Both the position numbers and the translations under genes were made by a program. A stretch of DNA of 64,000 nucleotides from an uncultured Acidobacteriota bacterium (GTDB lineage: Bacteria > Acidobacteriota > Vicinamibacteria > Vicinamibacterales > 2-12-FULL-66-21). Under the pieces are notes generated by a model that worked only from the letters and a program-made list of their open reading frames with translations, was not told where the DNA came from and did no database searches. Numbering within the stretch: position 1 is the stretch's first letter; the number at the start of each line of letters is the position of its first letter. This document shows positions 7,492-25,843 of this stretch, one piece after another. The stretch spans positions 30,073 through 94,072 of the forward strand of contig CAWFMC010000009.1 in assembly GCA_963816725.1 (NCBI GenBank), given 5' to 3'.

Positions 7492-7506
7492 CGGCACCGC
7501 AATTGC
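7492..7506 (+). promoter_or_regulatory. candidate sigma-54 -24/-12 promoter
   Basis: CGGCAC-cgcaa-TTGC, 174 nt upstream of the ATPase ATG 7680. Confidence 0.45.
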
Positions 7507-7679
7507 GAGAGGCCCAACCGCGTGGGTGGCATCTGCCACTCACACCGACTCTTCGACATCATGGCTCCATCGAGCGGACGACGCCGCGCAGGTCAGCAGC
7601 CTGAGGTCGTCACCGCTGCAACGGTGAAACCCGCAGGCCGCCGGTTGACCGGCGTCCGGCGGCGTTTTGAGGGCTCGTC

Positions 7680-9584
7680 ATGAGCGTTGTGGCGCAATCA
7701 CTGTCACGGCACATGCGGCCTGCCGCGCTCACGGGTGAGTGGTGGCCAGGTGCCGCGGCGCGCGCATCAGGCATCGCCATCCTGGCACTCGCCGGCATCC
7801 TCACGCATGTGGCGCTGCGCTGGGGCGTCGGCGCGTCCGCCGCCGCGTCGGCGCTCCCGCTCTATGTGGTGCTCGCCGCCGGCGGTGTTCCACTGGTACT
7901 GACCCTCGGCCTCAAGCTCGTTCGCCGCGAGTTCGGCTCCGATCTCCTGGCGGGAATCTCCATCATTGCGGCAGTGCTGCTCGGGGAATACCTGGCCGGC
8001 GCGCTGGTCGTGCTGATGCTCTCGGGCGGCGAGGCGCTCGAGGCGCTCGCACTCGGGCGCGCCTCGTCTGTCCTGCAGGCCCTGGCGCGCCGCATGCCGC
8101 TCGTGGCCCATCGGCGCGTCAACGGCCAAGTCTTCGAGCTGTCCCTCGAGCATGTGGAGATCGGCGACGAGTTGATCGTCTACCCGCACGAGATCTGTCC
8201 CGTAGATGGTGTGATCATCGAAGGCCACGGCGTGATGGACGAGTCGTATCTCACGGGCGAGCCCTTCATGATGCCGAAGGCGCCCGGATCCGAGGTGTTC
8301 TCCGGCGCCGTCAATGGCGACAGCGTGGTGACGCTCCGGGCCACGCGGGCGGCGATCGACTCGCGCTACGCGCGGATCATGAGCGTCATGCGGGATTCCG
8401 AGCAGCGACGGCCGCAGCTCCGCCGGCTGGGCGATCAGCTTGGCGCCTGGTACACGCCGATCGCGCTGGCGCTGGCCATCGCGGCGTGGCTGTGGAGCGG
8501 CGAGCCGGTCCGATTCCTCGCGGTGCTGGTCGTCGCCACTCCATGTCCGCTGCTCATCGGCATCCCGGTGGCAATCATCGGAGCCATCTCGCTGGCAGCC
8601 AAGCGTGGCATCATCATCCGCGACCCCGCGGTGCTGGAACGGATCGACCGCTGCCGTACGGTCATCCTCGACAAGACCGGGACCTTGACCTACGGCGAGC
8701 CGACCTTGACGGATCGGCTCGTCGCGCCGGGCATGGACGACGCCGTGGTGCTGCGGTCGGCGGCCAGCCTCGAGCGGTACTCGAAGCACCCGCTGGCAAA
8801 GCCCATTCTCGACGCCGCCGCGCAGCAGCATCTCGCGCCGGTCGACGCCAGCGAGGTGCGCGAGCGCCCTGGCGAAGGTCTGGAGGGTGACGTGGACGGC
8901 CGGCAGGTGCGAGTCCTCGGACGGCATCGGGCCGCAGCGATGGGCTACGGCAGCACGCTGCCGCCGGCCTCGACCGGCCTCGAATGCGTGATCCTGCTCG
9001 ACGGACAGTATGCCGCGACCTACCGGTTCCACGACGCGCCCCGCGCCGACAGCCAGTCCTTCATCACGCATCTGCGGCCCCGGCACCGGCTCGAGCGCGT
9101 CCTCCTCGTCTCAGGCGATCGCGAGAGCGAGGTGCGCTATCTCGCTGATCGCGTCGGGATCCAGGCAATCTACGCCGGCCAAACGCCTGAACAGAAGGTG
9201 GCCATCACCCAGGAGGAGACTCGCCGTGCGCCGACGCTCTTCATCGGCGACGGCATCAACGACGCGCCGGCGCTCGTGACCGCAACCGTGGGTCTGGCCT
9301 TCGGGCACCACAGCGAGATCACCACCGAGGCGGCGGGTGCCGTGATCATGGACACGTCGCTCAAGCGGGTCGACGAACTGTTTCACCTGGCGCGGCGCAT
9401 GCGCCGTATCGCGCTCCAGAGTGCGATCGGCGGGATGGCGCTGAGCATCCTCGGGATGTTCATCGCTTTCGGCGGATGGCTGCCGCCGGTCGGCGGCGCG
9501 GTGTTTCAGGAGATCATCGATCTGGCCGCCGTGGTCAACGCGCTTCGCGCGGCCGTTCCAGGTGGCACGCTGAGTGACTACTGA
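7680..9584 (+). CDS. heavy-metal P1B-type ATPase with TPCP transmembrane motif, no N-terminal metal-binding domain
   Basis: TGEP, DKTGTLT, SKHPL and GDGINDAP motifs. The TM motif is [11 protein letters not shown] (PCP instead of CPC). No CxxC domain at either end. Confidence 0.9.
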
Positions 9585-9836
9585 CGCCAGTCCACTGGGC
9601 CATCGTCAAGTGTCGCGTCCATCGCACTGGCGGGACGTGCCGTTACCGAGACGCGGTTTCGGCAAGTCGGCACACGGAGGCGATCGCGGAATCCCTGAAC
9701 GGCGGAGCGAGTGCTCGCCGCCCGGGCGCCGCGCCCCGTGCGAACGGACCACAACGGCCGAACGATCATCGCCGCTAGTCTACTTCCGCTGACGCACCCG
9801 CCAGGTCGCTCTGCCCGACGTCAGCACGCGATGCGT

Positions 9837-10334
9837 TCAGGCCTCAGCGACGGCAATCAACGCGTCCTGATGGACGAAGTCGCGCTCAGGCTGCTTGACG
9901 GTCAGGACCGGGCACGCCGCCAGCCGGACCACGCGCTCGGCGACACTTCCCATCAGCAAGTGCGCGAAGGCACCCCGGCCATGTGTGCCCATGACGATCA
10001 GGTCGACTCGATATTCGTTGGCGTATTCGATAATGGCCGCGGCGGGCGCGGCCGCGGTCACGACCGCCGGGGTGATTGCTGGGCCGCCGTCGTAGGCGTC
10101 CAGCACCAGGTCCTTCAATCGACGACGCGCATCGCCTTCCATCTGCTGCTGGAGCTCGGGACCGATCACGCTGAACCCTTCCGTGCCGAAGGCTCCGGGG
10201 GGAAACGTCTGGACGACATGCAGCACGTGCAGCGTGGCGCCGAAGCGACTCGCGAGCTCACGGCCATAGGCGCAGGCCGCGTCGGAGGCCTCGCTGAAGT
10301 CGGTCGCGACGAGAATGTGCTTCAGGCTAATCAT
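9837..10334 (-). CDS. universal stress protein (UspA family)
   Basis: ATG 10334 with GGAGG upstream. MISLKHILVATDFSEASDAA, IVMGTHGRGAFAHLLMGSVAERVVRLAACPVLTV. Confidence 0.85.
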   Translation of the reverse strand: MISLKHILVATDFSEASDAACAYGRELASRFGATLHVLHVVQTFPPGAFGTEGFSVIGPELQQQMEGDARRRLKDLVLDAYDGGPAITPAVVTAAAPAAAIIEYANEYRVDLIVMGTHGRGAFAHLLMGSVAERVVRLAACPVLTVKQPERDFVHQDALIAVAEA

Positions 10335-10383
10335 GATGACCTCCGCCAGGTGTGAAGGACCGCCGACGACGATTGTTTGATCC

Positions 10384-10398
10384 GCAAGCGCCGTACCG
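10384..10398 (-). promoter_or_regulatory. candidate sigma-54 -24/-12 promoter
   Basis: The minus strand reads CGGTAC-ggcgc-TTGC, 50 nt upstream of ATG 10334. Confidence 0.5.
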
Positions 10399-10534
10399 GA
10401 GCCGGACGAAGGAACCCGGGAAGATTGGCAGGTCGGGGGCTCGCAGGTGTGATGTTCTCCGCACGTGCCGCGCAATCGTTCGCGCCCGGCCGCGCGTTGA
10501 CGGCGACGAGGAGCCCGGAACTATGAGTCAGGAA

Positions 10535-11818
10535 CTATGAGACAGCGGCAAGCGGCAGCGAGACCGTCGCGACCGTGCCGCCGCCGGGGCGGTCGGTGAG
10601 CGCGATCCGTCCACCCTGCTGCTCGACCAGTCGCTTGACGATCGCCAGCCCCAGACCCGTGCCTTCCGCCCGGGTCGTCACGAACGGCTCGAACAGCCGT
10701 TCGCGAACGCTCTGCGGCAGCCCCGGTCCGCGGTCGCGGACCGCCATGTGGCACGAACCGTCTTCGACCATCACCTCGATCTCGACGCCCCCGTCAGCTG
10801 ATGCCTGGCAGGCGTTCAGCGCCAGGTTCAGGAGGGTCGCTCGCAGCGCGTCAGGATCGCCAACCGCGCGGACCGGCCCACCGTGCACCGCAATCGCCGG
10901 TCCGCGCTGACCCATTGCCGCCGCGGCACTGGCGGCAGCGTCGCGGGCCAGTGCCAGCGCGTCGACGGGACGGACGAGCGCCGCGGTGGGCTTGGCGTAT
11001 TGCAGCAGGTCGTTGACCTTGGCATTCAGGCCATCGATCCGCCGGATCATCGTCCGAACGACATCCCGCTCCATGCTCGCCGACGGAAATCGCCCGTTGA
11101 GGATCTCCAGCGATGCACGCAAGCCGGTCAGGGGGTTGCGGACTTCGTGGGCGACCATGGCCGTCAGCTGTCCGAGCTGCAGCAGGGCGGCCTGCTCGCG
11201 GATTTGTGCCTCGGCCTCCTTACGGGCGGTGATGTCGCTGCGAATCGAGAGGTACTGGCGGGGCTTGCCGCTTCCGTCGACGAACGGGACGATGGTGGTG
11301 TCGACCCAGTAGAAGCTCCCGTCTTTCGCCCGGTTGCGGAGCTCGCCGCGCCAGACGCGGCCGTTCGCGATCGTCCGCCACAGATTGCGGATGAACTCCT
11401 TCGAGTGATGACCGGAGTTGACGATGCGGTGGTCCTGACCGAGCAGCTCCTCGCGGCTGAATCTGGAGATGGCGCAGAACTGATCGTTGACGTAGGTGAT
11501 GACGCCGCGCTGATCGGTAATCGCGACGATGGCGGCCTGGTCCAGGGCATAGCGCATCTCGTCCAGCCTGGCCAGCGACTCGGCCATCGCGCGGGTCACC
11601 TGCGCCGCGTCGTGCGCCGCGCGGCAGCGTTTCCAGGCGAGGGCACCGGCGGCCGCGGCGGTCGAGAGCATCACCAGGATCGGCCGCCAGCCGGCTGTCG
11701 ACAGCGCGATGGTCCCGCCGCCGCCCCACACCGCACCGGCCGCCAGCAGCAGCGCCGCACTGAGGCCGACGGCAAGTGGCTCCATCGCCCGTGGCCCCGC
11801 GCGTCGCTCGTACGTCAT
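10535..11818 (-). CDS. membrane PAS-domain sensor histidine kinase
   Basis: Two N-terminal TM helices, a PAS domain (VAITDQRGVITYVNDQFCAISRFSREELLGQDHRIVNSG) and H-box AHEVRNPLTGL. HATPase_c boxes (LLNLALNACQA, DRGPGLP, GTGLGLAIV). Confidence 0.85.
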   Translation of the reverse strand: MTYERRAGPRAMEPLAVGLSAALLLAAGAVWGGGGTIALSTAGWRPILVMLSTAAAAGALAWKRCRAAHDAAQVTRAMAESLARLDEMRYALDQAAIVAITDQRGVITYVNDQFCAISRFSREELLGQDHRIVNSGHHSKEFIRNLWRTIANGRVWRGELRNRAKDGSFYWVDTTIVPFVDGSGKPRQYLSIRSDITARKEAEAQIREQAALLQLGQLTAMVAHEVRNPLTGLRASLEILNGRFPSASMERDVVRTMIRRIDGLNAKVNDLLQYAKPTAALVRPVDALALARDAAASAAAAMGQRGPAIAVHGGPVRAVGDPDALRATLLNLALNACQASADGGVEIEVMVEDGSCHMAVRDRGPGLPQSVRERLFEPFVTTRAEGTGLGLAIVKRLVEQQGGRIALTDRPGGGTVATVSLPLAAVS

Positions 11819-11824: not shown

Positions 11825-14498
11825 CTAGTAGACGATCCGCCGGTTCGGAGGCGCCGCCGCCGGTCGCTCGATGCGAACCCGCAGGTCGGCCGCGAACGCG
11901 CCGGTGTGCTGCACCAGCACCGGATTGATGTCCAGTTCCTGCACTTCGGGTGCGAGGGACAGCAGGGCAGACACGCGCAGCAGGACGTCGCGCAACGCCG
12001 CCTCGTCGGCGGGAGGCGCGCCGCGGAAGCCGCGCAACAGCCGCGCGCCGCGCAGCTCGTTGACCATGTCGGCGGCGTCGACGGTCGTCAAGGGATGTAG
12101 CCGGAACGAGGTGTCCTGCATCAGATCGACGAGCACTCCGCCGGTCCCGCAGGCGATGAGCGGGCCGAACGATGGATCCTGGACGGCGCCGACCAGCATC
12201 TCCACACCGCCCCGGACCATCGCCTGGACCAGGGCCGACGTCATCTCGTCGCCGAACCGTCGCACGAAGTCGTCATACGCCGCCCGGACCTCGTCGTCGT
12301 CCGCGAGGTTCAGCGCGACCGCCCGGCGTTCGGTCTTGTGCAGCAGCGTGGGACCCTGCGCCTTCAGGACCGCCGGGTATCCCACCGCCCGTGCCGCGGC
12401 AACTGCCTCGTCCACGCTCGTGACGACCTGCGCGGCCGGTGCGGCGACCCCGATGGCCTTCATCAAGGCCATGCCTTCGGACGGACGGGTCCATCCGCCG
12501 CCACGGGTCAGCACGGCGTCCACGGTTTCGCGTACGGCACCGGCGTCAATGTCCGGAAGCACAGGCGTGGTGCCGAGCGGCGCCTCGCGCCAGCGTCCGT
12601 AGACCGTGACCCGGGATAAGGCGATTGCGGCCGACTCCGGAAAGGCATAGGAAGGGATGGGCGCGAGCGTCGCGGGCGCGCCTTCGGATCGCATGAACAC
12701 GCCGAGCACCGGTTTGCCCGGGACCGCCGCGGCGCTGGCCGCCATCGCGGCGGCTACCGCCGAGGGATCGGTGACGAGCGGCGGAATGAAGATGGCGATC
12801 ACGCTGTCCACCGACTCGTCGCGCAACAGCACCTCCAGCCCGCGCCGGTAGTGCTCGGGCGGCGCCGAAGCCAGCATGTCGACCGGATTGCTGACGCTGG
12901 CTGCTGCCGGAAGGAAGGACCGTAGCTCGCCGTGTGTGGTCTCGGATAATGCCGGCAGGGCGAGGCCGTTCGCCTCGCACGCGTCGGCGGCGAGAATGCC
13001 CGGACCGCCGGCGTTGGTCAGGATGGCCACTCGCGGTCCCCTCGGCAACGGCTGATGGGCCAGGAGAGACGCGACATCGAACAGCTCTTCGAGCCGCTCG
13101 GTCCGGATCACGCCGGCCTGCCGGAAGAGCGCGTCGACCGCCGTATCGCTCGAGGCGAGGGCGCCGGTATGCGAGGCCGCGGCGCGCGAGCCGGCCTGCG
13201 ATCGTCCGGCCTTCACCGCGACGATGGGCTTGCGCCGGCCGATGCGCCGTGCGATCTCACTGAACTTCTTCGGATTGCCGAAGCTCTCCAGGTAGAGCAG
13301 GATGACGTTGGTCCGGGGATCGTCGGCCCAGTACTGGAGCAGATCGTTCCCCGAGACGTCCGCCTTGTTCCCGACCGAGACGAAGCTCGAGATGCCGATG
13401 CCGAGCCGGCGCGCGTAGTCCAGGATCGCCAACCCGAGCGCGCCGCTCTGGGTCGACATGGCGACGGTGCCCGCTGGTGGATAGACCGGCGAAAAGGTCG
13501 CGTTCAGCTGCACCGCGGGATCGGTGTTCAAGAGGCCCATGCAATTGGGGCCGATCAACCGGCACCCGGCGGCGCGGACCTTCTCCAGCAGTTCACGCTC
13601 ACGCTCCCGCCCGGCCGCATCGCACTCGCCGAAGCCGGCGCTGATCACGCAGATCGCCGGGACGCCTTTGGCAATGCAGTCGTCGACCGCCGCGAGCACC
13701 TGGGCGGCGGGGACTACGACGACCGCCAGGTCGACCGCATCGGGGATATCAGCCACACGGGCGAACGCCCGGCGGCTGCCGATCTCCGCCGCGCTCGGGT
13801 GCACCGGGATGACCGTGCCCCTGAAGCCGGCCCCGAGCAGGTTGTAGAAGATTTCGGATCCGATGCGCCCGCGCTCCCGGTTCGCGCCGATGACCGCGAC
13901 CACCCGCGGCGTGAAGAACGCTTTCATCGACTCGCTGGCGGCCCGCTGCGAGCGCGCCGCGGCGCGGCGTTCGTAGTGATCCGTCACGTCGAGCGAGAGC
14001 ACGACGTGGCAGAGACCATCCTGCTGGCTGATGGTGCACGACAGGCCGCACTCACGGAACAGCTCCAGCATCCGGACGTTGTCGCCAATCACGTGCGCGT
14101 CGAAATGGGTCACGCCCTCGGCGACCGCGAGGCGAGCGAGCTGTTCGAGCAGCCGCGTGCCGATGCCGTGGCCCTGGACGGCGTCGCTGACGGCGAATCC
14201 GACTTCCGCCCGCGTTCGCACAGCCGGCAGGCGGTAATAGCCGGCGAAGCCGACGATCCGGCGACCCGCCTCCGCAATCAGCGACGTCCCATCCGTCTCC
14301 ACCAGCCCACGCATCCGCGCGGGCGTAAGCGCGGGATACCCGAGGAAGCGGAAGTAGCGGCTGGTCGGGGAGAGGCCCTCGAAGAACTTGATGAGCGCGT
14401 CGATGTCCGCGGCGCCGGCCTGGCGCAGGCAGACCGTCGACCCGTCACGAACCACGACGTCTACGGGACTGACAACGACGTGCACGACTGGCTCCCTC

Positions 14499-14509
<11 letters not shown>
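11825..14509 (-). CDS. PatA-like bifunctional protein: N-terminal GNAT acetyltransferase plus NDP-forming acyl-CoA synthetase (CoA-binding, ATP-grasp) domains
   Basis: GNAT motif (VSDAVQGHGIGTRLLEQLARLA), CoA-binding region (PRVVAVIGANRERGRIGSEIF, VISAGFGE) and ATP-grasp region (VGYPAVLKAQGPTLLHKTERRAV). ATG 14509 (TTG 14515 in the track) overlaps the 3' end of the upstream regulator. A 6-nt gap separates it from the downstream kinase. Confidence 0.85.
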
Positions 14510-15860
<1,351 letters not shown>

Positions 15861-17459: not shown

Positions 17460-17503
17460 CGATCGGCGTGATGATGAAGTGGTCCTTGCGAAGCAGTTCC
17501 CTC

Positions 17504-18358: not shown

Positions 18359-18949
18359 TCAGCTCTTCGGCACCACGGCCCAGAACCACCCGCGCACCTC
18401 ACCCGGACGAAAACCGTGCGCCGCGTCGGCCGGATAGCGCCGCGCCAGTTCCTCCCGCACGGCCGGGTCGATGCGCTCGGTCGGACCGTGACACTTCGCG
18501 CAGACCGGAGCTTCGGTGATCGGTTGCAGGATGCCGACCTTCGGGCCGAGATCGACCGCGTAGCCCTCGACGGCATCGGCCCGGGCCCCGGCATGCGATG
18601 CGATCAGGCGAGCCGCCCAACCCGGCACCGCGTTGTGCGGATTGCGCAGGCGGTCGCTCGTCAGGCCTGTGACGATCCCGTCCCGGCGCGCAATCTCGCG
18701 TGCGGCCGACTGGGCGCGCATGTGGCAGACGCGCAACGCCAGCGCCGGACCGCCTTTCGCCAGCTTGGTCTGGAGCTCGCTGAGCAGCGCGTCGTGGACC
18801 TCGACTCTCAGCACGTTCGCGCGGCTGATCGCCGCGCGAAACGTCGCGGGGGCCTCGCTGATGCGCCAGGCCGGCGTGTCCGGTTGCGCAGACATCATCA
18901 GCGCGCTTGTGAGCAGGATCGTGAGCGTTGCCGCGGCCGCCCGTGCCAT
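18359..18949 (-). CDS. DUF3365 (Tll0287-like, haem-binding) domain protein, secreted
   Basis: Signal peptide MARAAAATLTILLTSALMMSAQP. CxxCH-like CAKCHG and the typical C-terminus GFRPGEVRGWFWAVVPKS. Confidence 0.7.
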   Translation of the reverse strand: MARAAAATLTILLTSALMMSAQPDTPAWRISEAPATFRAAISRANVLRVEVHDALLSELQTKLAKGGPALALRVCHMRAQSAAREIARRDGIVTGLTSDRLRNPHNAVPGWAARLIASHAGARADAVEGYAVDLGPKVGILQPITEAPVCAKCHGPTERIDPAVREELARRYPADAAHGFRPGEVRGWFWAVVPKS

Positions 18950-19014
18950 GATGCGCTCCTCGTCCGATCTGCGAACGGTCGCCTGCCGATCGATCGCCGG
19001 CTGACGATCGTGGA

Positions 19015-19029
19015 GCACGGTCCGTACCA
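19015..19029 (-). promoter_or_regulatory. candidate sigma-54 -24/-12 promoter (weaker)
   Basis: The minus strand reads TGGTAC-ggacc-GTGC, 66 nt upstream of ATG 18949. Confidence 0.35.
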
Positions 19030-19323: not shown

Positions 19324-19557
19324 CTACTCGGCCCGGGCGGCGTAGCGTCCGTCGTCCGCCAGGTACACCAGTCGGGCGGTCGTCAATTCCTGAAGCACAC
19401 GCGCGCAGATGTCCGCCCGGAGATTCAAGAGCCGCTGGGTCTGCGCGGCAGTGAGCCGGAGACACGGCAACTGCTTGAACTCGGCGTGGACGCGCCGCAC
19501 GAGTGCCATGCGCGAGGCCTGATTTCTCCGCTCGGGGCGCGGCCGTGCGTACGCCAT
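19324..19557 (-). CDS. small Cys-containing protein of unknown family, paralog A (winged-helix-like suspected)
   Basis: MAYARPRPERRNQASRMALVRRVHAEFKQLPCLRLTAAQTQRLLNLRADICARVLQELTTARLVYLADDGRYAARAE. About 50 percent identical over 55 aa to the 24572..24919 product. ATG 19605 is an alternative start. Confidence 0.55.
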   Translation of the reverse strand: MAYARPRPERRNQASRMALVRRVHAEFKQLPCLRLTAAQTQRLLNLRADICARVLQELTTARLVYLADDGRYAARAE

Positions 19558-19618
19558 TCCTGCGTCTGTGGCGCGGTTCAACTTGGCAGCGTGTTGCGGC
19601 ATCATCCGCGTTGCTTGG

Positions 19619-19633
19619 GCAAGTGCGGTGCCA
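19619..19633 (-). promoter_or_regulatory. candidate sigma-54 -24/-12 promoter (perfect core)
   Basis: The minus strand reads TGGCAC-cgcac-TTGC, 62 nt upstream of ATG 19557 (14 nt upstream of ATG 19605). Confidence 0.65.
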
Positions 19634-19793: not shown

Positions 19794-19808
19794 CGGCACG
19801 TGGCTTGC
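19794..19808 (+). promoter_or_regulatory. candidate sigma-54 -24/-12 promoter
   Basis: CGGCAC-gtggc-TTGC, 42 nt upstream of ATG 19850. GGGAGG/GGAGGA lie in the predicted leader. Confidence 0.6.
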
Positions 19809-19849
19809 CCCAGGGCGGTTGCATAACCGGGAGGCGTCTGGAGGACACC

Positions 19850-21049
19850 ATGCTGGCCGCCGCATCGCACGTCATCGAGGGTCACGTCAGCCGGGGCTTC
19901 GAGCCAGTGCGGGAGGCGTTCGCCGAGAACTTCGCGCGGCGAGGCGAGGTGGGCGGTGCCTGTTGCGCCTATCAACGCGGAGAGAAGGTGGTCGATCTCT
20001 GGGGCGGGGTTCGCAACAAGGCGACCGGAGCGCCATGGGAGCGCGACACGATGGTCGTCGTCCACTCGGCGACGAAGGGCCTGGCCGCCATGACGCTGGC
20101 CATCGCCCACGCGCGCGGCTGGCTGGACTACCGCGAGCGGGTCGCCACGTATTGGCCCGAGTTCGCCGGGCACGGCAAAGACGAGATTACCGTTCGCCAA
20201 CTGCTCGCCCATCAGGCCGGGCTGTTTGCCTTCAACGAGACGGTCGACCGCAGCGTGATCGCGGACCTCGATCGGCTCGCGGACGTGATGGCGCGTCAAG
20301 AGCCGGCGTGGGAGCCGGGGACGCGGCAGGCCTATCACGCCCTCACCCTCGGTTTCTACGAAGGCGAGCTGATCCGCCGTATCGATCCGCGCCGTCGCTC
20401 GTTGGGGCAGTTCTTTCACGATGAAATCGCGGTGCCGTTGGGAGAGGACGTCTTCATCGGTCTGCCGGAGGCGATGCCGAATTCCCGATTGGCTGTGCTC
20501 TCGGCACCGGGGCGTCTGGCCCTGCTGTTCGGGTTTCCGTTCCGGCTGACCGTGGACGCGCTGAACCCTCAGTCCAACATCTATCGCGCACTCGTGGCCA
20601 ACCCCGGCGCGTCCGTCTACCTCGACGACCAGCGGATCTACGCCCGCAACCTCGAAGTGCCATCTGGAAACGGGATCGGTACGGCCCGGGCGATTGCGCA
20701 CGCGTATAGCGTCTTCGCCGGTGATGGACGCCAGCTTGGCCTGCGCCAGGAAACCCGCGACATGCTGGCCGCACCGGCTATTCCACCGAGCCGCGGCTTC
20801 TACGACGAGTGTATGAAGGCCCAGGGGGTCGAGTTCTCCCTGGGGTTCATGAAGTCGTGCCCGGCGTTCCGATTCGGTGGCGCACGGTCGTACGGTGCGC
20901 CCGGGGCCGGCGGGGCGATGGGCTTTGCTGATCCCGACGCCGGCGTGGGTTACGGCTATGTCACGAGCCAGATGGGGACCACGCTGACGCGCGACCCGAG
21001 GGATGCCGCGCTCGGCGCGGCTCTGTACGCGGCCATCCAGAGGCACTGA
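19850..21049 (+). CDS. serine hydrolase, beta-lactamase/esterase (class C-like) family
   Basis: SxxK motif in VVVHSATKGLAAMTLA. About 400 aa, with a typical N-terminus (VSRGFEPVREAFAENF). Confidence 0.85.
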   Translation: MLAAASHVIEGHVSRGFEPVREAFAENFARRGEVGGACCAYQRGEKVVDLWGGVRNKATGAPWERDTMVVVHSATKGLAAMTLAIAHARGWLDYRERVATYWPEFAGHGKDEITVRQLLAHQAGLFAFNETVDRSVIADLDRLADVMARQEPAWEPGTRQAYHALTLGFYEGELIRRIDPRRRSLGQFFHDEIAVPLGEDVFIGLPEAMPNSRLAVLSAPGRLALLFGFPFRLTVDALNPQSNIYRALVANPGASVYLDDQRIYARNLEVPSGNGIGTARAIAHAYSVFAGDGRQLGLRQETRDMLAAPAIPPSRGFYDECMKAQGVEFSLGFMKSCPAFRFGGARSYGAPGAGGAMGFADPDAGVGYGYVTSQMGTTLTRDPRDAALGAALYAAIQRH

Positions 21050-23068: not shown

Positions 23069-23083
23069 CGGCCCATGTCCTGC
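23069..23083 (+). promoter_or_regulatory. candidate sigma-54 -24/-12 promoter (degenerate)
   Basis: CGGCCC-atgtc-CTGC with correct GG-N10-GC spacing, 31 nt upstream of ATG 23114. AGGAG lies in the predicted leader. Confidence 0.3.
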
Positions 23084-23113
23084 ATCGCCGCTGAGACAGA
23101 AGGAGCAAACGCG

Positions 23114-23605: not shown

Positions 23606-23768
23606 ACAGGAACTGCATCGCACGTGCCTTCCAGCGCGCCCGGCTCGACGCCGCGTCCTCTTCGGCGGTTTCCTGAGACAGCGGGTGATTTTGGCGGCTC
23701 GCACGGATAATTCCGTGCACTGGAGGTGCGGTGACGTCGCTCGCCAGCATCTTCTCTCTGCCGATACA

Positions 23769-23783
23769 CGGCACGAGGGTTGC
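23769..23783 (+). promoter_or_regulatory. candidate sigma-54 -24/-12 promoter
   Basis: CGGCAC-gaggg-TTGC, 58 nt upstream of ATG 23841. Confidence 0.6.
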
Positions 23784-23840
23784 CGATTGGTTAGCCGGCG
23801 GCGCCGTCCGGGGGCTGTCGTGCGGCGAAGGGAGGGCGTG

Positions 23841-24286
23841 ATGCGGGTCACCGACGTGATGAGTACCGACGTCCGCACGGTCGAGGGCGGCGAATTGATC
23901 CCGCGCGCGCGGGCCATGATGGCGGACGCGCGAGTTCATCACCTGGTGGTTCTCCATGATGGACACGTGGTCGGGCTCGTATCTGCCGACCAGCTCGAAC
24001 TTGGCCAGGCCGAAGGTGTCCGTCGCGTGGAAGACGTGATGTGCCGGCACCTGCGATGTGCGATGCCGGATACGACGCTGCCGGAAGCGGTCACGCTCCT
24101 GCGCGGGCAGCGCTCGCGTGCGCTCCCGATCGTGAACGCGACCGCGTCGTCGGAATCGTGACCGCCTCGGATCTGCTCGACGTGATCGCGCGTGGCGGTG
24201 ATTCGGCCGCGGCCTCTAAGCGCGGCCAGGCTGGACGGGCAAGAGGGCACACCGCGCCGGTCGTCGAGTGGCGTCCGCAGCGTTAG
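23841..24286 (+). pseudogene. CBS-pair domain protein interrupted by a 1-nt deletion near 24035-24037
   Basis: GGAGGG precedes ATG 23841. The first CBS domain (MRVTDVMSTDVRTVEGGELI, HHLVVLHDGHVVGLVSADQL) is in frame 0. The end of the second CBS domain (RDRVVGIVTASDLLDVIARG) continues in track ORF 24041..24286 (frame -1). Confidence 0.7.
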
Positions 24287-24571: not shown

Positions 24572-24919
24572 CTACACGGCGGCTGCGAGACGGCTGAAGC
24601 GACCGTCAGGGCCCTGGCGGATATGGCCAGTACTCGCCAGGTCCTTGAGAACCCGAGCGCAGATGTCCGCGCGCAAGCCGAAGAGGCGGGCGGCCTCGGC
24701 GCATGTCACCCGCATACACGGCATCTCGCTGAACTCGCCTCGAACGCGGCCCAGAAGCCGGACTCGGCTCTCATCGTCCCGAGGGTCCGGCTGCTTCAGG
24801 AGACGGAGAGCCGGCCGTGCCGACACGAAGGGGCGCACCCGTTCCGATGCCCGCGATCGGCTCCACTGGGCAGCGCCGGCGCGGTCGGCGGTCGAGGTGG
24901 TCGTCGCACTGGTCATCAT
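24572..24919 (-). CDS. small Cys-containing protein of unknown family, paralog B
   Basis: 115-aa ORF ending RVRLLGRVRGEFSEMPCMRVTCAEAARLFGLRADICARVLKDLASTGHIRQGPDGRFSRLAAAV. Shares the PCxRxT and LRADICARVL blocks with paralog A. Confidence 0.55.
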   Translation of the reverse strand: MMTSATTTSTADRAGAAQWSRSRASERVRPFVSARPALRLLKQPDPRDDESRVRLLGRVRGEFSEMPCMRVTCAEAARLFGLRADICARVLKDLASTGHIRQGPDGRFSRLAAAV

Positions 24920-24961
24920 CGGCGGGCCCTCTCAGAAGAAGCGGTGTGTGACCAAGTGCGA

Positions 24962-24976
24962 GCAACGGACATGCCG
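24962..24976 (-). promoter_or_regulatory. candidate sigma-54 -24/-12 promoter
   Basis: The minus strand reads CGGCAT-gtccg-TTGC, 43 nt upstream of ATG 24919. Confidence 0.6.
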
Positions 24977-25127
24977 AGACCCACGACGGGCGTCGGGCGC
25001 AGTCATCACGCCTCGACGCCGTGCCGATGCCGCTTGGTCCGCCCTAAGCACGAGCCCATCCGGTCGCCGGCCAGTGCGAAGGAATTCCCAGCGACGCGGA
25101 ATTGTCCGCGGCCTGCACGCCAGCCCT

Positions 25128-25625
25128 TCAGGCGTGTGCGACACGAGCGAGCGCATCGGCTCGGGCGAACTCGCGCTCGGGGTGTTTCACCGTCAGGACC
25201 GGGCAGCGGGCGAAACGGACCACCCGCTCCGCAACGCTCCCCAGCACGAGATGCAGCACCGCACCACGGCCGTGCGTGCCCATGACGATCAGGTCGATGT
25301 CGTTCTCCTTCGCGTAGTCGACAATCGCCAGAGCGGGCGAGGCGGCCGTCCGAACGCCTGTAATCGTTTCCGGCTCGCCGGGGCCATTCGCGCCGACGAT
25401 CTCTTCGAGGCGGCGGCGCGCCGCATCGTCGATTTCCTGCTGGATCGCGGGCGCGCTCGCCAGAGAGTTCTCTGCTCCGGACATGGCGACGTAGACGTCC
25501 TGCGCGACATGCAGCACGTGCAGCCGCGCACCGAATCGCATCGCCAGTTCGCGGCCGTAGAGCAGTGCCGCCTCCGATGGCTCACTGAAATCGGTCGCGA
25601 CCAGGATCTGCTCGAGAGTCATCAT
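25128..25625 (-). CDS. universal stress protein (UspA family)
   Basis: GGGAGG lies upstream of ATG 25625. MMTLEQILVATDFSEPSEAALLYG, IVMGTHGRGAVLHLVLGSVAERVVRFARCPVLTV. Confidence 0.85.
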   Translation of the reverse strand: MMTLEQILVATDFSEPSEAALLYGRELAMRFGARLHVLHVAQDVYVAMSGAENSLASAPAIQQEIDDAARRRLEEIVGANGPGEPETITGVRTAASPALAIVDYAKENDIDLIVMGTHGRGAVLHLVLGSVAERVVRFARCPVLTVKHPEREFARADALARVAHA

Positions 25626-25674
25626 CGAAGCCTCCCTAGAACCGGCGATCGTTGCGGCTCCGTCGAATCCATGC

Positions 25675-25689
25675 GCAACAGTTGTACCC
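25675..25689 (-). promoter_or_regulatory. candidate sigma-54 -24/-12 promoter
   Basis: The minus strand reads GGGTAC-aactg-TTGC, 50 nt upstream of ATG 25625. Confidence 0.5.
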
Positions 25690-25828
25690 GGCGCCGCCGG
25701 GCGGATCGGGCGAAGACGCTGCCCCTGGTGGCCGTCAATACCGCACGAGCCTGTCGGGAACGGACCGCGCGCCGTGACCGGCTCCCTTGGAGGTGTCACC
25801 GCCCGCGGATCTTGGAGGAGCGTCGGCG

Positions 25829-25843
25829 TGGAACGCGCATTGC
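25829..25843 (+). promoter_or_regulatory. candidate sigma-54 -24/-12 promoter
   Basis: TGGAAC-gcgca-TTGC, 68 nt upstream of ATG 25911. Confidence 0.5.

What the first reader, a model, noticed from the sequence alone, without database searches (positions are those of the whole stretch)
7492..25843. Dense cluster of sigma-54 (-24/-12) promoters defining a USP-centred stress regulon
Twelve matches to TGGCAC-N5-TTGC lie on the coding strand just upstream of start codons.
- 7492 CGGCAC-cgcaa-TTGC (P-type ATPase, 174 nt)
- 10398-10384(-) CGGTAC-ggcgc-TTGC (USP, 50 nt)
- 15922-15908(-) CGGCAC-ttcgg-GTGC (the activator gene, 48 nt)
- 17445 TGGCAT-ccgca-TTGC (USP, 45 nt)
- 19029-19015(-) TGGTAC-ggacc-GTGC (DUF3365, 66 nt)
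- 19633-19619(-) TGGCAC-cgcac-TTGC (small protein A)
- 19794 CGGCAC-gtggc-TTGC (serine hydrolase, 42 nt)
- 23069 CGGCCC-atgtc-CTGC (OsmC, 31 nt)
- 23769 CGGCAC-gaggg-TTGC (CBS protein, 58 nt)
- 24976-24962(-) CGGCAT-gtccg-TTGC (small protein B, 43 nt)
- 25689-25675(-) GGGTAC-aactg-TTGC (USP of the divergent pair)
- 25829 TGGAAC-gcgca-TTGC (the other USP of that pair)

A nine-position pattern such as GGCA[CT]-N5-TTGC should occur by chance about once or less in this window on both strands. That is a back-of-envelope figure, not a computation. Six exact instances occur, and all are intergenic and correctly oriented. Each is followed by a leader containing a Shine-Dalgarno sequence. The only bEBP in the window lies in the middle of the cluster. 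Gene callers do not report this organisation. The target set is USPs, CBS, OsmC, a haem-sensor-like DUF3365 protein, a metal pump and unknown small proteins. It resembles a dormancy or hypoxia-type stimulon driven by sigma-54 rather than by a DosR-type regulator.
Basis: partly seen in the sequence, partly recalled or inferred. Interest (0 to 1): 0.8.

Follow-up and report, generated by a model that had tools for sequence, protein, structure and literature searches.

The report
Sigma-54 stress regulon with phased enhancers
A soil acidobacterium (Vicinamibacterales-like) puts about ten stress genes, mostly universal stress proteins, under sigma-54 promoters; many share a palindromic enhancer, not described before to my knowledge, for one neighbouring two-component activator, so this is a new example of a well-known kind of control, probably used to survive oxygen or energy shortage.

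Summary
All 12 motifs are at the stated coordinates, in intergenic DNA and co-oriented with the gene downstream. GGCAY-N5-TTGC occurs 6 times against 1.3 expected. With a rough sigma-54 matrix, 16 of 33 hits fall in the 6% of strand positions that lie just upstream of start codons (p~1e-11).

New here is a 14-bp palindromic enhancer, GCGGAA-ww-TTCCGC. It usually comes as two copies 20-21 bp apart, centred about 60 and 80 bp upstream of the -24 GG and helically phased. In the window it precedes the activator's own operon, two USP genes, the CBS gene and a small winged-helix gene.

The same enhancer-promoter design recurs next to orthologous activators in about 30 Vicinamibacteria, planctomycete and myxobacterial MAGs. 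It is absent from loci with non-orthologous activators. The genes it drives there are USPs (15 of 45), Hsp20, BON, flavodoxin, CBS and PFOR.

The cognate kinase carries an MmoS/Aer/NifL-type FAD-PAS domain, which suggests redox or oxygen sensing. This is inferred, not shown.

Support by site: five promoters are well supported, five are probable, and two (ATPase, OsmC) are at chance level.

The closest known analogue is the hypoxia-responsive NmpR/sigma-54 regulon of Myxococcus, which uses a different enhancer and sensor. Verdict: a real feature and a new member of a known kind.

The parts
14499..15860 (-). NtrC-family enhancer-binding response regulator (REC, sigma-54 AAA+ and Fis-type HTH domains; loop motif GAFTDA). 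It is the first gene of the operon bEBP / GNAT-ACD / histidine kinase.
   Evidence: Pfam. NCBIfam's best match is AtoC, but below the cut-off. It is the only bEBP in the window. GAFTDA is a common natural variant, seen in 28 of 80 homologues. The exact protein occurs on 20 metagenome contigs.
15907..15922 (-). -24/-12 promoter of the bEBP operon (CGGCAC-ttcgg-GTGC), 48 nt from the start codon. It implies autoregulation.
   Evidence: 9.5 bits. GG and GC are conserved in L001-L004 while the spacer varies.
15971..16010 (.). Tandem enhancer (UAS) of the bEBP promoter: two 14-bp dyads centred at -60 and -80 from the -24 GG (GCGAAATAATCCCC and GCGAAAACGTTCGC).
   Evidence: 20.1 and 13.9 bits with a matrix built only from non-window loci. 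The same two dyads sit at the same offsets in L001, L002 and L003.
11825..14485 (-). Fusion of a GNAT acetyltransferase with an ADP-forming acyl-CoA synthetase (Pat-like). The catalytic-His motif SHTGA is present.
   Evidence: Pfam and NCBIfam; motif. The gene neighbours the bEBP in L001, L009, L013, L017 and L018. In L071 it sits behind a sigma-54 site with a 19-bit UAS.
10535..11818 (-). Sensor histidine kinase: two N-terminal hydrophobic segments (read by eye), then PAS, HisKA and HATPase domains. The PAS domain is of the FAD-binding MmoS/Aer/NifL type.
   Evidence: Pfam. The PAS domain is roughly 70% identical by eye to MmoS PAS-A (3EWK, E=2e-61); the next hits are Aer and NifL PAS1. The kinase is adjacent to the bEBP orthologue in most of L001-L020.
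10383..10398 (-). -24/-12 promoter of USP1 (CGGTAC-ggcgc-TTGC).
   Evidence: 10.5 bits; 50 nt from the start codon.
10446..10486 (.). Tandem UAS of USP1, centred at -58 and -80.
   Evidence: 10.1 and 9.8 bits.
9837..10334 (-). [quoted passage not shown] It has the G-x2-G-x9-G-S ATP-binding motif (read by eye).
   Evidence: Pfam; sequence.
17445..17460 (+). -24/-12 promoter of USP2 (TGGCAT-ccgca-TTGC).
   Evidence: 13.4 bits; 45 nt from the start codon at 17504. Public gene calls give the same 159-aa USP.
17357..17396 (.). Tandem UAS of USP2, centred at -80 and -60.
   Evidence: 11.6 and 8.2 bits, exactly 20 bp apart.
17504..17983 (+). USP2.
   Evidence: Pfam; tblastn.
23769..23784 (+). -24/-12 promoter of the CBS-pair gene (CGGCAC-gaggg-TTGC).
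   Evidence: 12.2 bits; 58 nt from the start codon. CBS genes sit behind sigma-54 sites with a UAS in L018 and L023.
23700..23719 (.). Single palindromic UAS (ACGGATAATTCCGT). It lies at -60 from the CBS promoter and at -82 from the back-to-back site at 23629(-).
   Evidence: 11.9 bits. The 142-bp back-to-back geometry is shown.
23841..24161 (+). CBS-pair protein.
   Evidence: Pfam.
24961..24976 (-). -24/-12 promoter of smallB (CGGCAT-gtccg-TTGC), the best-scoring of the twelve listed sites.
   Evidence: 14.9 bits. Near-identical promoters with a UAS occur in L001, L008, L010, L011 and L012.
25073..25112 (.). Tandem UAS of smallB, centred at -108 and -128 (GCGAAGGAATTCCC and GCGGAATTGTCCGC).
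   Evidence: 12.1 and 17.2 bits, 20 bp apart.
24572..24919 (-). smallB, a 115-aa protein with a C-terminal stand-alone winged-helix domain. It is a paralogue of smallA.
   Evidence: No Pfam or NCBIfam hit. The model has pLDDT above 90 for the C-terminal 65 residues. Fold matches are to wHTH domains of IclR, MarR and ArsR proteins, at weak E-values of about 1e-3.
19618..19633 (-). -24/-12 promoter of smallA (TGGCAC-cgcac-TTGC). It is back to back (163 bp) with the hydrolase promoter.
   Evidence: 13.2 bits. The enhancer is weak: 7.0 bits at -60 (19683-19702), plus an 8-of-10 dyad match at -82.
19324..19509 (-). smallA, a paralogue of smallB that shares the LRADICARVL core. Its true start codon is uncertain: in-frame ATG codons lie further upstream, as far as about 19600.
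   Evidence: Homologues follow USP genes in sigma-54 operons in L018 and L013.
19794..19809 (+). -24/-12 promoter of the beta-lactamase-fold serine hydrolase (CGGCAC-gtggc-TTGC).
   Evidence: 12.2 bits; 42 nt from the start codon. The 69%-identical orthologue in L006 has a 12.7-bit site and a 20.7-bit UAS.
19850..21049 (+). Beta-lactamase-fold serine hydrolase (LipL/EstB-like).
19014..19029 (-). -24/-12 promoter of the Tll0287-like gene (TGGTAC-ggacc-GTGC). It has no recognisable UAS.
   Evidence: 12.3 bits; 66 nt from the start codon. A Tll0287 homologue sits between USP genes in L011, but without a good sigma-54 site.
18359..18949 (-). Tll0287-like (DUF3365) protein with a CAKCH haem-c motif.
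   Evidence: Pfam; sequence.
25674..25689 (-). -24/-12 promoter of USP3 (GGGTAC-aactg-TTGC). It is back to back (142 bp) with the USP4 promoter.
   Evidence: 9.8 bits; geometry. The only enhancer candidate is a degenerate central dyad at about -70 from both promoters (8 of 10 matches).
25829..25844 (+). -24/-12 promoter of USP4 (TGGAAC-gcgca-TTGC).
   Evidence: 13.0 bits.
25128..25625 (-). USP3.
   Evidence: Pfam.
25911..26378 (+). USP4.
   Evidence: Pfam.
7492..7507 (+). Doubtful -24/-12 site upstream of the P1B-type heavy-metal ATPase gene (7680-9584).
   Evidence: 9.2 bits, and 32 window sites score as well. The leader would be 174 nt and there is no UAS. Support is by association only: a 63%-identical ATPase lies next to a sigma-54/UAS-driven GNAT-ACD gene in L071.
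23069..23084 (+). Unsupported -24/-12 candidate upstream of the OsmC gene (23114-23605).
   Evidence: 7.5 bits, and 64 window sites score as well. There is no UAS. Its 'CGGCCC' directly follows the second copy of a different repeat, GTGCGATTGCG (22835 and 23056), and both copies continue into GCGGCCC (read).

Best explanation
The region is the core of a sigma-54 regulon run by one two-component system.

Sensor and activator. The membrane-anchored histidine kinase (10535-11818) carries an FAD-type PAS domain and most likely reports redox state or oxygen supply (inferred). It would phosphorylate the NtrC-family enhancer-binding protein (14499-15860) (inferred from domain architecture and conserved adjacency).

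Enhancer. The activator binds a 14-bp palindrome, consensus GCGGAA-ww-TTCCGC. The palindrome is normally present as two copies 20-21 bp apart. The promoter-proximal copy is centred about 50, 60, 70 or 81 bp upstream of the -24 GG, that is, on one face of the helix (shown as sequence architecture; binding is inferred). From there the AAA+ ring contacts sigma-54 holoenzyme bound at GG-N10-GC promoters and opens them (established mechanism for this protein family).

Targets with promoter plus enhancer in the window: the activator's own operon (bEBP, GNAT-ACD fusion, kinase; positive autoregulation), USP1, USP2, the CBS-pair gene, and the small winged-helix gene smallB.

Probable further targets, with a good -24/-12 site but a weak or unrecognised enhancer: smallA, the serine hydrolase, the Tll0287-like haem protein, and the back-to-back USP3/USP4 pair.

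The ATPase and OsmC sites are not supported.

Physiological role (inferred). The regulon would switch on ATP-binding stress and energy-state proteins, and in relatives Hsp20, BON, flavodoxin, PFOR and an ADP-forming acyl-CoA synthetase. This would let an aerobic soil bacterium persist through oxygen or energy limitation.
For: 1. Promoters. Six exact core matches against 1.3 expected. Sixteen of 33 matrix hits lie in the 6% promoter zone (p=1e-11), and orientation is correct in 10 of 10 sites at 11 bits or more.

2. Conservation. The bEBP promoter keeps its GG and GC in L001-L004 while the spacer varies. Seventeen of 31 USP genes near orthologous bEBPs carry a site of about 11 bits or more 7-76 nt upstream.

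3. Enhancer position. A dyad defined on 5 bEBP promoters peaks at -85/-80 and -65/-60 relative to 105 sigma-54 sites in the window plus 20 loci. The peaks hold 26 and 18 hits per 5-nt bin against a background of about 4.

4. Enhancer in the window. A matrix trained without the window finds pairs at -60/-80 for the bEBP (20.1 and 13.9 bits), USP1 and USP2. It finds a single site at -60 for CBS and a pair at -108/-128 for smallB.

5. Specificity. A UAS of 10 bits or more lies within -140 to -55 of sigma-54 sites in 4 of 13 cases in the window and in 10 of 35 in L021-31; both sets are independent of training. In loci with non-orthologous bEBPs the figure is 5 of 187, and 0 of 48 at matched GC (Fisher p=0.0014 for the window). 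The mirrored downstream control gives 0-4.

6. Helical phasing. Rayleigh R is 0.5-0.6 at a period of 10-11 bp, with p below 1e-4 (printed as 0.0 at four decimals).

7. Back-to-back promoter pairs. Divergent to convergent pairs number 24:5 in the orthologous set and 21:23 in controls. Fourteen pairs are 120-175 bp apart, three of them in the window.

8. Regulon content in relatives. Of 45 genes downstream of promoter plus enhancer, 15 are USPs and 3 are bEBPs. The rest include BON, NifU-like, Hsp20, flavodoxin, cytochromes c and c', PEP-utilising enzyme, ADH, and the hydrolase orthologue. In a planctomycete, a four-CBS protein and PFOR form a divergent pair around one tandem UAS.

9. Sensor. 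The PAS domain is roughly 70% identical by eye to FAD-binding MmoS PAS-A; the next hits are Aer and NifL PAS1.

10. Literature. NmpR with sigma-54 activates CBS, USP and P-type ATPase genes under hypoxia in M. xanthus (PMC11841059). In Acidobacterium capsulatum a histidine kinase rises 84-fold and a uspA gene 56-fold on a shift to 0.1 uM O2 (PMC11636273).
Against: - There are no expression, TSS or binding data for this organism; everything is sequence inference.
- rpoN was not seen.
- The sigma-54 matrix is my own approximation.
- The UAS matrix was trained on L001-L020, so the 41 of 78 found there is circular.
- On its own the UAS matrix is not enriched in the window (9 hits of 10 bits or more against 7.6 in Markov-random sequence). 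The signal lies only in position relative to promoters.
- Half of the listed promoters lack a convincing enhancer.
- smallB's enhancer sits at -108/-128, off the main -60/-80 class.
- The stimulus is inferred from a PAS subtype and from gene content. MmoS itself belongs to a copper-responsive system, so FAD-PAS does not by itself mean oxygen.
- The related loci are mostly MAG contigs.
Confidence: 0.72

Rival explanations
1. Mosaic control. The -24/-12 sites are genuine sigma-54 promoters, but the cluster is not one regulon. Only the enhancer-bearing promoters answer to the local bEBP. Tll0287, USP3/USP4, the hydrolase, smallA and possibly the ATPase would be driven by other bEBPs encoded elsewhere in the genome.
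For: Six of the 12 promoters have no UAS of 8 bits or more in the -140 to -55 zone. The window holds further good sigma-54 sites far from the cluster and without this UAS: 85(+), 35812(-), 44699(-), 46258(-) and 60134(+). The organism therefore clearly uses several bEBPs. A unique perfect palindrome, GTGACGTCGCACGTCAC, sits just upstream of the Tll0287 promoter.
Against: The hydrolase orthologue in L006 does carry a strong UAS of this type. smallA-family genes lie in UAS-driven USP operons in L013 and L018. USP3/USP4 and smallA/hydrolase show the same 142-163 bp back-to-back geometry as enhancer-sharing pairs in relatives, with degenerate dyads at the expected positions.
Confidence: 0.3
2. Chance matches. 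The motifs are GC-rich coincidences in 67% G+C DNA and not promoters at all.
For: Sixty-four window sites score as well as the OsmC site and 32 as well as the ATPase site. The OsmC 'CGGCCC' directly follows an unrelated direct repeat that continues into it in both copies.
Against: For the set as a whole this is excluded by several results. These are the shuffles, the promoter-zone and orientation enrichment, cross-species conservation with variable spacers and the phased enhancer.
Confidence: 0.03
3. Same circuit, different stimulus. The system responds to something other than oxygen limitation, such as general energy or carbon starvation, desiccation or osmotic stress, metal (copper) status as in MmoS, or oxidative stress.
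For: FAD-PAS domains report redox state in several contexts, and MmoS belongs to the copper switch of methanotrophs (plus established knowledge). The candidate target genes here and the enhancer-driven genes in relatives include OsmC (its own site is at chance level), BON, Hsp20 and YceI, which also fit osmotic or desiccation stress. USPs respond to many stresses.
Against: PFOR, an ADP-forming acyl-CoA synthetase, flavodoxin, ADH, cytochrome c' and CBS/USP sets are typical of low-oxygen programmes. USPs and a histidine kinase are the top nanoxia-induced genes in another acidobacterium. The M. xanthus analogue is hypoxia-induced.
Confidence: 0.3
4. The palindrome is the site of another transcription factor, for example a repressor or a Crp/Fnr-like protein, and only happens to accompany sigma-54 promoters.
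For: No binding data exist. The small winged-helix proteins smallA and smallB are co-regulated DNA-binding candidates.
Against: The motif tracks orthology of the bEBP. It is present with homologues of about 53% identity or more and absent with others. It sits upstream of the bEBP gene itself in five genomes. It has the tandem dyad form, the distance and the helical phasing typical of bEBP enhancers. A Fis-type HTH dimer fits a 14-bp palindrome.
Confidence: 0.08

Closest known systems
NmpRSTU / NmpR regulon of Myxococcus xanthus (McAllister et al., J Bacteriol 2025, PMC11841059)
   Same: An NtrC-like response regulator works with sigma-54. It binds tandem dyad-symmetric enhancer sites upstream of -24/-12 promoters and autoregulates its own operon. 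Its targets include a CBS-domain protein, a single-domain USP and a P-type ATPase. It is induced by hypoxia in an aerobic soil bacterium.
   Different: The enhancer differs: GCGCA-N5-TGCGC with 14-15 bp between sites, against GCGGAA-ww-TTCCGC with 20-21 bp centre to centre here. The NmpR motif is not enriched in the window (13 hits against 14.3 expected) and none of the hits lies in the cluster's intergenic DNA. The sensor differs too: there it is a haem protoglobin kinase in a four-protein phosphorelay, here a single FAD-PAS kinase. cbb3 oxidase, hemN and hemerythrin targets are not seen here. USPs dominate here (5 in the window). Orthology of the two regulators was not tested.
DosR/DevR dormancy regulon of Mycobacterium tuberculosis (and OsdR of Streptomyces)
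   Same: A two-component system induces a clustered set rich in USPs, together with a CBS protein (hrp1), Hsp20 (hspX), a P-type ATPase (ctpF) and redox proteins. Tandem binding boxes are an architectural hallmark, and the system autoregulates (established knowledge; PMC3177182 and PMC2914252 listed).
   Different: DosR is a NarL/LuxR-type regulator that acts at sigma-70-family promoters. Its kinases, DosS and DosT, sense through haem-GAF domains. Here the regulator is an AAA+ sigma-54 activator and the sensor is an FAD-PAS kinase. The resemblance is functional, not homologous.
Classical NtrC/AtoC/ZraR-type two-component sigma-54 systems
   Same: The REC, AAA+ and HTH_8 architecture, the cognate kinase encoded alongside, palindromic tandem UAS about 80-130 bp upstream of the TSS, and face-of-helix dependence.
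   Different: It is not an equivalog of any named family. The best match, AtoC, scores 449 bits against a cut-off of 714. The target set and enhancer sequence are different. The proximal UAS lies unusually close, about 84 bp from the predicted TSS.
MmoS sensor kinase of Methylococcus capsulatus (PDB 3EWK) and other FAD-PAS sensors (Aer, NifL)
   Same: The PAS domain of the kinase is roughly 70% identical (by eye from the alignment) to MmoS PAS-A (E=2e-61) and clearly related to Aer and NifL PAS1, all of which bind FAD.
   Different: MmoS has two PAS domains and belongs to the copper-responsive sMMO switch. Here there is one PAS domain in a small kinase with two N-terminal hydrophobic segments, in a USP regulon. 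Cofactor binding was not tested.
PSSM-predicted sigma-54 regulons across phyla (Carrera-Reyna et al., PLoS One 2025, PMC12316311)
   Same: That study reports enrichment of COG0589 (UspA) among predicted sigma-54-dependent genes in Planctomycetia. This is the lineage in which I find 50-56%-identical bEBP homologues, some of them with the same enhancer.
   Different: That paper's main text does not mention Acidobacteria (0 occurrences). I did not see an enhancer or a cognate activator assigned to these genes in the passages I read.

Membership tests
Sigma-54-dependent (-24/-12) promoter | GG and GC doublets separated by exactly 10 nt, in a TGGCAC-N5-TTGC context | tested here: met
   All 12 sites have GG-N10-GC. 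Ten score 9.5-14.9 bits. The ATPase site scores 9.2 and the OsmC site 7.5, which is chance level.
Sigma-54-dependent (-24/-12) promoter | Located upstream of and co-oriented with a gene; enriched there relative to coding DNA | tested here: met
   16 of 33 hits lie in the 6% promoter zone (p=1e-11). At 11 bits or more, 10 are correctly oriented and 0 only wrongly oriented.
Sigma-54-dependent (-24/-12) promoter | An enhancer-binding AAA+ activator with a GAFTGA-type loop is available | tested here: met
   Sigma54_activat domain at E=2.8e-66. The loop reads GAFTDA, a variant shared by 28 of 80 homologues.
Sigma-54-dependent (-24/-12) promoter | The genome encodes RpoN | not testable with these tools
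   rpoN was not seen in the window: no sigma-54 domain turned up in the ORFs scanned, though about six ORFs beyond 53 kb were not scanned.
Sigma-54-dependent (-24/-12) promoter | Transcription starts about 12 nt downstream of the GC and depends on rpoN and the bEBP | not testable with these tools
   Needs 5'-end mapping and mutants.
NtrC-family two-component enhancer-binding protein | REC, sigma-54 AAA+ and Fis-type HTH domains, with a cognate histidine kinase encoded alongside | tested here: met
   Pfam. The kinase is in the same operon and is adjacent in most orthologous loci.
NtrC-family two-component enhancer-binding protein | Dyad-symmetric tandem UAS upstream of its target promoters, position-dependent | tested here: met
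   (sequence architecture only; binding was not tested).
NmpR regulon (M. xanthus) orthologue | Enhancer consensus GCGCA-N5-TGCGC | tested here: not met
   13 matches with at most 1 mismatch against 14.3 expected, and none in the cluster's intergenic regions.
NmpR regulon (M. xanthus) orthologue | Protoglobin haem kinase NmpU and the NmpS/T phosphorelay | tested here: not met
   The only kinase next to the bEBP is a single FAD-type PAS kinase. No globin domain was found in the window ORFs that were scanned.
NmpR regulon (M. xanthus) orthologue | Target set of CBS, USP and P-type ATPase genes, with autoregulation | tested here: inconclusive
   CBS, USPs and autoregulation are met. The ATPase promoter is at chance level.
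DosR/DevR dormancy regulon | NarL/LuxR-type response regulator with haem-GAF kinases | tested here: not met
   The regulator is an AAA+ sigma-54 activator and the kinase is a PAS kinase.
FAD-binding PAS sensors (MmoS/Aer/NifL type) | Sequence membership of the FAD-PAS subfamily | tested here: met
   E=2e-61 to 3EWK PAS-A, 7e-20 to Aer and 4e-14 to NifL PAS1. The NifL model TIGR02938 also matches the PAS region.
FAD-binding PAS sensors (MmoS/Aer/NifL type) | Actually binds FAD and changes kinase activity with redox state | not testable with these tools
   Needs purified protein.

The most novel reading that the evidence does not exclude
The enhancer, promoter and activator module may be a widely shared sigma-54 'anoxia and energy-starvation survival' programme. 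It would span Acidobacteriota (Vicinamibacteria), Planctomycetota and Myxococcota, with single loci from a Gammaproteobacteria MAG and a Verrucomicrobiia MAG. Functionally it would be the counterpart of the actinobacterial DosR dormancy regulon. An FAD-PAS kinase would sense respiratory redox state. The activator would then switch on USPs, CBS proteins, Hsp20 and BON proteins, small winged-helix proteins and a pyruvate-to-acetate ATP-yielding route (PFOR plus ADP-forming acyl-CoA synthetase, the latter fused to a Pat-like GNAT that might acetylate USPs). This could explain how abundant 'aerobic' soil bacteria persist in anoxic microsites.
Probability: 0.35. Interest if true: 0.65.

Novelty: new member of a known kind. 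Interest (0 to 1): 0.45.

Why it matters
Vicinamibacteria and other Acidobacteriota are among the most abundant soil bacteria, yet almost nothing is known about their gene regulation. This locus gives a concrete circuit that can be tested: a sensor kinase, an activator, a defined 14-bp enhancer with fixed phasing, and about ten promoters. The genes it controls (USPs, CBS and others) are the kind that respond most strongly when another acidobacterium runs out of oxygen. The enhancer and promoter matrices can be used straight away to predict the regulon in any related genome or MAG. The circuit is also a second, independently evolved example, after NmpR of Myxococcus, of sigma-54 taking the role that DosR plays in actinobacteria. 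It does not reveal a new mechanism of transcription control.

Tried and rejected
- UAS matrix alone as a genome-wide predictor. It is not enriched in the window (58, 22 and 9 hits at 6, 8 and 10 bits against 55, 21 and 7.6 in Markov-random sequence). Only its position relative to sigma-54 sites is informative. The relaxed dyad regex behaved the same way (53 against 57).
- NmpR-type enhancer GCGCA-N5-TGCGC. Not enriched.
- k-mer enrichment around tandem UAS pairs gave TTGCT and TGGCA as the top 5-mers. I do not count this as independent evidence, because the UAS matrix had been trained on sequences chosen upstream of sigma-54 hits.
- Riboswitch or leader RNA in the long leaders and gaps. No Rfam family matches anywhere in the window.
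- Promoters as copies of a repeated or mobile element. The only long repeats are USP coding-sequence paralogy.
- A second bEBP in the window. None found.
- Orthologue-based support for the ATPase promoter. L071 has a 63%-identical ATPase beside a UAS-driven GNAT-ACD gene but no convincing sigma-54 site of its own. L015 and L016 hold only distant paralogues.
- Support for the Tll0287 promoter from L011. The best site there scores only 7.0 bits.
- UAS upstream of the site at 85(+). No dyad is visible in the 84 nt available.
- Homology search for smallB. Only 8 close relatives, none with a Pfam domain or an informative name.
- Linking to the A. capsulatum nanoxia-induced kinase ACP_1638 and uspA ACP_1576. 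I could not fetch that genome, so orthology and promoter content there remain unknown.

Full report
**Origin and gene map.** The window has about 67% G+C. Its bEBP is 82% identical to proteins of Vicinamibacterales MAGs, so the organism is an acidobacterium of class Vicinamibacteria. The exact bEBP protein occurs on 20 metagenome contigs from ENA and JGI, and the public gene calls there agree with mine. I called genes with a simple codon-usage scorer and named them with Pfam and NCBIfam.

| Coordinates | Strand | Product |
|---|---|---|
| 7680-9584 | + | P1B-type heavy-metal ATPase |
| 9837-10334 | - | USP1 |
| 10535-11818 | - | PAS histidine kinase |
| 11825-14485 | - | GNAT fused to an ADP-forming acyl-CoA synthetase |
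| 14499-15860 | - | REC-AAA+-HTH bEBP |
| 17504-17983 | + | USP2 |
| 18359-18949 | - | Tll0287-like protein with a CAKCH haem motif |
| 19850-21049 | + | beta-lactamase-fold hydrolase |
| 23114-23605 | + | OsmC |
| 23841-24161 | + | CBS pair |
| 25128-25625 | - | USP3 |
| 25911-26378 | + | USP4 |
| 26613-27104 | + | USP5 |

There is only one bEBP in the window.

**The observation.** GGCAY-N5-TTGC has six matches against 1.31 expected, and none of 100 shuffles reaches six.
- I scored the window with an approximate sigma-54 matrix of my own, recalled from the Barrios et al. 1999 consensus. It gives 33 sites of 9 bits or more. Sixteen lie 15-200 nt upstream of a co-oriented start codon, a zone that makes up 6% of strand positions (p=1.2e-11). 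Eleven of those sixteen are inside 7400-26000. At 11 bits or more no site is found only in the wrong orientation.
- Ten of the twelve sites score 9.5-14.9 bits. The ATPase site scores 9.2, matched by 32 window sites. The OsmC site scores 7.5, matched by 64. These two cannot be separated from chance.
- The OsmC 'CGGCCC' also directly follows the second copy of an unrelated exact repeat, GTGCGATTGCG (22835 and 23056), which in both copies runs on into GCGGCCC.
- The promoters do not lie in duplicated DNA.

**Comparative evidence that the promoters are real.** A search with the bEBP returned 80 loci. L001-L020 are 63-82% identical Vicinamibacteria/Acidobacteriota orthologues, one of them (L018) deposited under an Acidimicrobiia label. 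L021-L031 are 50-59% identical and come mostly from Polyangiales and Sandaracinaceae (Myxococcota) and Planctomycetota, with one Gammaproteobacteria MAG and one Acidobacteriota MAG. The remaining loci are 47% identical or less.
- The orthologues are flanked by the PAS kinase, USP genes and often the GNAT-ACD gene.
- Seventeen of 31 USP genes in L001-L019 carry a sigma-54 site of about 11 bits or more 7-76 nt upstream. About one would be expected at the window's background rate. Several of the USP genes without a site are second genes of tandem USP operons.
- Upstream of the bEBP gene itself, the GG and GC doublets are kept in the window and in L001-L004 while the intervening bases differ.
- The smallB-type promoter GGCATGTCCGTTGC recurs almost unchanged in six loci.

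**A shared enhancer (new).** Aligning the bEBP upstream regions exposed two conserved AT-centred palindromes.
- A simple dyad rule, G[GC]G[GA]A-N4-T[TC]C[GC]C, finds them at -80 and -60 from the -24 GG in the window, L001 and L002, and near those offsets in L003.
- Measured against all 105 sigma-54 sites in the window plus L001-L020, dyad matches pile up at -85/-80 and -65/-60. Those bins hold 26 and 18 hits against about 4 elsewhere.
- A matrix refined on non-window loci only has the consensus GGCGCGGAATATTCCGCGCC, with the core GCGGAA-ww-TTCCGC.
- In the window this matrix gives the following:

| Promoter | UAS coordinates | Bits | Offset from -24 GG |
|---|---|---|---|
| bEBP | 15971-15990 / 15991-16010 | 20.1 / 13.9 | -60 / -80 |
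| USP1 | 10446-10465 / 10467-10486 | 10.1 / 9.8 | -58 / -80 |
| USP2 | 17357-17376 / 17377-17396 | 11.6 / 8.2 | -80 / -60 |
| CBS | 23700-23719 | 11.9 | -60 |
| smallB | 25073-25092 / 25093-25112 | 12.1 / 17.2 | -108 / -128 |
| smallA | 19683-19702 | 7.0 (weak) | -60 |

- Taken alone the matrix is not enriched in the window (9 hits against 7.6 expected at 10 bits or more). The evidence lies in position.
- A UAS of 10 bits or more lies within -140 to -55 of sigma-54 sites as follows:

| Sequence set | Sites with UAS / sigma-54 sites |
|---|---|
| Window | 4 / 13 |
| L001-L020 (training set) | 41 / 78 |
| L021-L031 (independent) | 10 / 35 |
| L032-L080, non-orthologous bEBPs | 5 / 187 |
| L032-L080, matched G+C | 0 / 48 |

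  The mirrored downstream zone gives 0-4.
- Proximal sites cluster at -50, -60, -70, -81 and -91. This is a 10-11 bp period (Rayleigh R 0.5-0.6, p below 1e-4, printed as 0.0), which is the face-of-helix signature expected of an enhancer-bound AAA+ activator.
- Back-to-back promoter pairs sharing one enhancer are typical of the orthologous set. Divergent pairs outnumber convergent pairs 24 to 5, against 21 to 23 in control loci, and 14 pairs are 120-175 bp apart. The window has three: USP3/USP4 (142 bp), CBS/23629(-) (142 bp) and smallA/hydrolase (163 bp).

**What the regulon contains.**
- In L001-L020, 45 genes lie downstream of promoter plus enhancer. Fifteen are USPs and three are bEBPs (autoregulation). 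There are three BON and three NifU-like proteins, two Hsp20 and two flavodoxins. The rest include cytochromes c and c', a YceI protein, a PEP-utilising enzyme, a zinc-type alcohol dehydrogenase (Pfam ADH_zinc_N) and the orthologue of the window's hydrolase.
- In a planctomycete (L023), a four-CBS protein and pyruvate:ferredoxin oxidoreductase are divergently transcribed around one tandem enhancer.
- In a verrucomicrobial MAG (L071), the GNAT-ACD gene follows a sigma-54 site with a 19-bit enhancer and sits beside a 63%-identical copy of the ATPase.
- The GNAT-ACD fusion keeps the SHTGA catalytic-histidine motif of ADP-forming acyl-CoA synthetases. Its GNAT domain is most like that of mycobacterial Pat.
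- smallA and smallB are paralogues with no family assignment. The smallB model is confident over its C-terminal 65 residues and folds as a stand-alone winged helix. Homologues follow USP genes in enhancer-driven operons in L013 and L018.

**Signal.** The kinase has two N-terminal hydrophobic segments (read by eye from the sequence) and one PAS domain. By eye the PAS domain is roughly 70% identical to the FAD-binding PAS-A of MmoS (3EWK, E=2e-61). The next hits are Aer and NifL PAS1, which also bind FAD. This points to a flavin redox sensor. The link to oxygen is inferred from three things:
- the regulon content described above;
- the hypoxia-induced NmpR regulon of M. xanthus (PMC11841059);
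- Acidobacterium capsulatum, where a histidine kinase (84-fold) and a uspA gene (56-fold) are among the genes that respond most strongly to 0.1 uM O2, with no regulator identified (PMC11636273).

**Comparison with what is known.**
- The design is a textbook NtrC-type system. The protein is not an equivalog of any named family (best match AtoC, below cut-off). Its GAFTDA loop is a frequent natural variant.
- The closest functional analogue is NmpR. It shares the sigma-54 mechanism, tandem dyads, autoregulation and CBS, USP and P-type ATPase targets. Its enhancer is different (GCGCA-N5-TGCGC, not enriched here), and so is its sensing module (a protoglobin phosphorelay).
- The resemblance to DosR is functional only.
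- A 2025 PSSM survey had already noted UspA enrichment among predicted sigma-54 genes in Planctomycetia, without mentioning Acidobacteria in its main text (PMC12316311).

The finding is therefore real and richer than first described, but it is a new member of a known kind of system.

**Caveats.**
- Nothing here is experimental.
- rpoN could not be checked.
- Both matrices are home-made.
- Most comparison sequences are MAG contigs.
- Six of the twelve promoters (seven counting smallA's 7-bit site) lack a convincing enhancer and may belong to other activators. The window clearly holds sigma-54 sites of other regulons, for example upstream of two PEP-CTERM genes and a serine dehydratase gene.

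Noticed in passing
window 23614-23629 (-): A thirteenth good sigma-54 site, AGGCAC-gtgcg-ATGC, scores 13.3 bits. It lies exactly 142 bp back to back with the CBS promoter and shares the palindrome at 23700-23719, which is at -82 from it. It points into the 3' end of the OsmC gene, so it would make an antisense RNA, or it is a relic of a lost divergent gene.
   Followed up: partly
window 19324-19509 (-) and 24572-24919 (-); L018 14502-14762, L013 8375-8689: smallA and smallB belong to an unannotated family of small proteins. The conserved core reads R-G-E-F-x-E-M-P-x-L-R-L-T...RL-x-L...C..VL. The predicted fold is a stand-alone winged helix. Members sit in sigma-54/USP operons in several genomes. 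They could be secondary regulators of the response.
   Followed up: partly
window 46258-46273 (-) and 33179-33194 (+): Sigma-54-like sites of 12.0 and 9.7 bits lie upstream of two PEP-CTERM-sorted proteins (45514-46227 and 33366-34085). This fits the proposed PrsK/PrsR (TIGR02915) sigma-54 control of PEP-CTERM genes. Neither site has the USP-regulon enhancer.
   Followed up: no
window 44699-44714 (-): The best-scoring sigma-54 site in the window (TGGCAT-tcggg-ATGC, 15.0 bits) lies 280 nt upstream of an L-serine dehydratase gene (42863-44419). It presumably belongs to a different bEBP regulon.
   Followed up: no
window 19057-19073: A unique perfect 17-bp palindrome, GTGACGTCGCACGTCAC, is centred about 37 bp upstream of the -24 GG of the Tll0287-like gene's promoter. 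It may be the site of another regulator.
   Followed up: partly
window 22835-22845 and 23056-23066: There are two exact copies of GTGCGATTGCG, each continuing into (Y)GCGGCCC, 221 bp apart in the spacer between the GFO/IDH/MocA oxidoreductase gene and the OsmC gene.
   Followed up: partly
window 11825-14485 (-): The bEBP operon carries an N-terminal GNAT fused to a full ADP-forming acyl-CoA synthetase, with the SHTGA catalytic-histidine motif intact. The GNAT domain is closest to mycobacterial Pat, which is known to acetylate a USP. The enzyme could make ATP from acyl-CoA, acetylate regulon proteins, or both.
   Followed up: partly
window 85-100 (+), 190-4250: A sigma-54-like site of 11.6 bits lies 90 nt upstream of an unknown 316-aa ORF. 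That ORF is followed by a cNMP-binding histidine kinase (1180-2595) and a REC domain fused to a thioredoxin-reductase-like flavoprotein (2592-4250). No USP-regulon dyad is visible in the 84 nt available upstream.
   Followed up: partly
window 50700-52768 (+): A tyrosine recombinase (phage-integrase family) is followed by an IS91-family (Y2) transposase, a small mobile element outside the regulon.
   Followed up: no
window 26613-27104 (+): A fifth USP gene (USP5) has no detectable -24/-12 site in its 234-nt upstream spacer. It may be read through from USP4 or use another sigma factor.
   Followed up: no
L023 14225-17819: In a Planctomycetaceae genome, pyruvate:ferredoxin oxidoreductase and a four-CBS protein are divergently transcribed from sigma-54 promoters 171 bp apart that share the same tandem enhancer. 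This suggests the module extends beyond Acidobacteriota and is tied to anaerobic pyruvate metabolism.
   Followed up: partly
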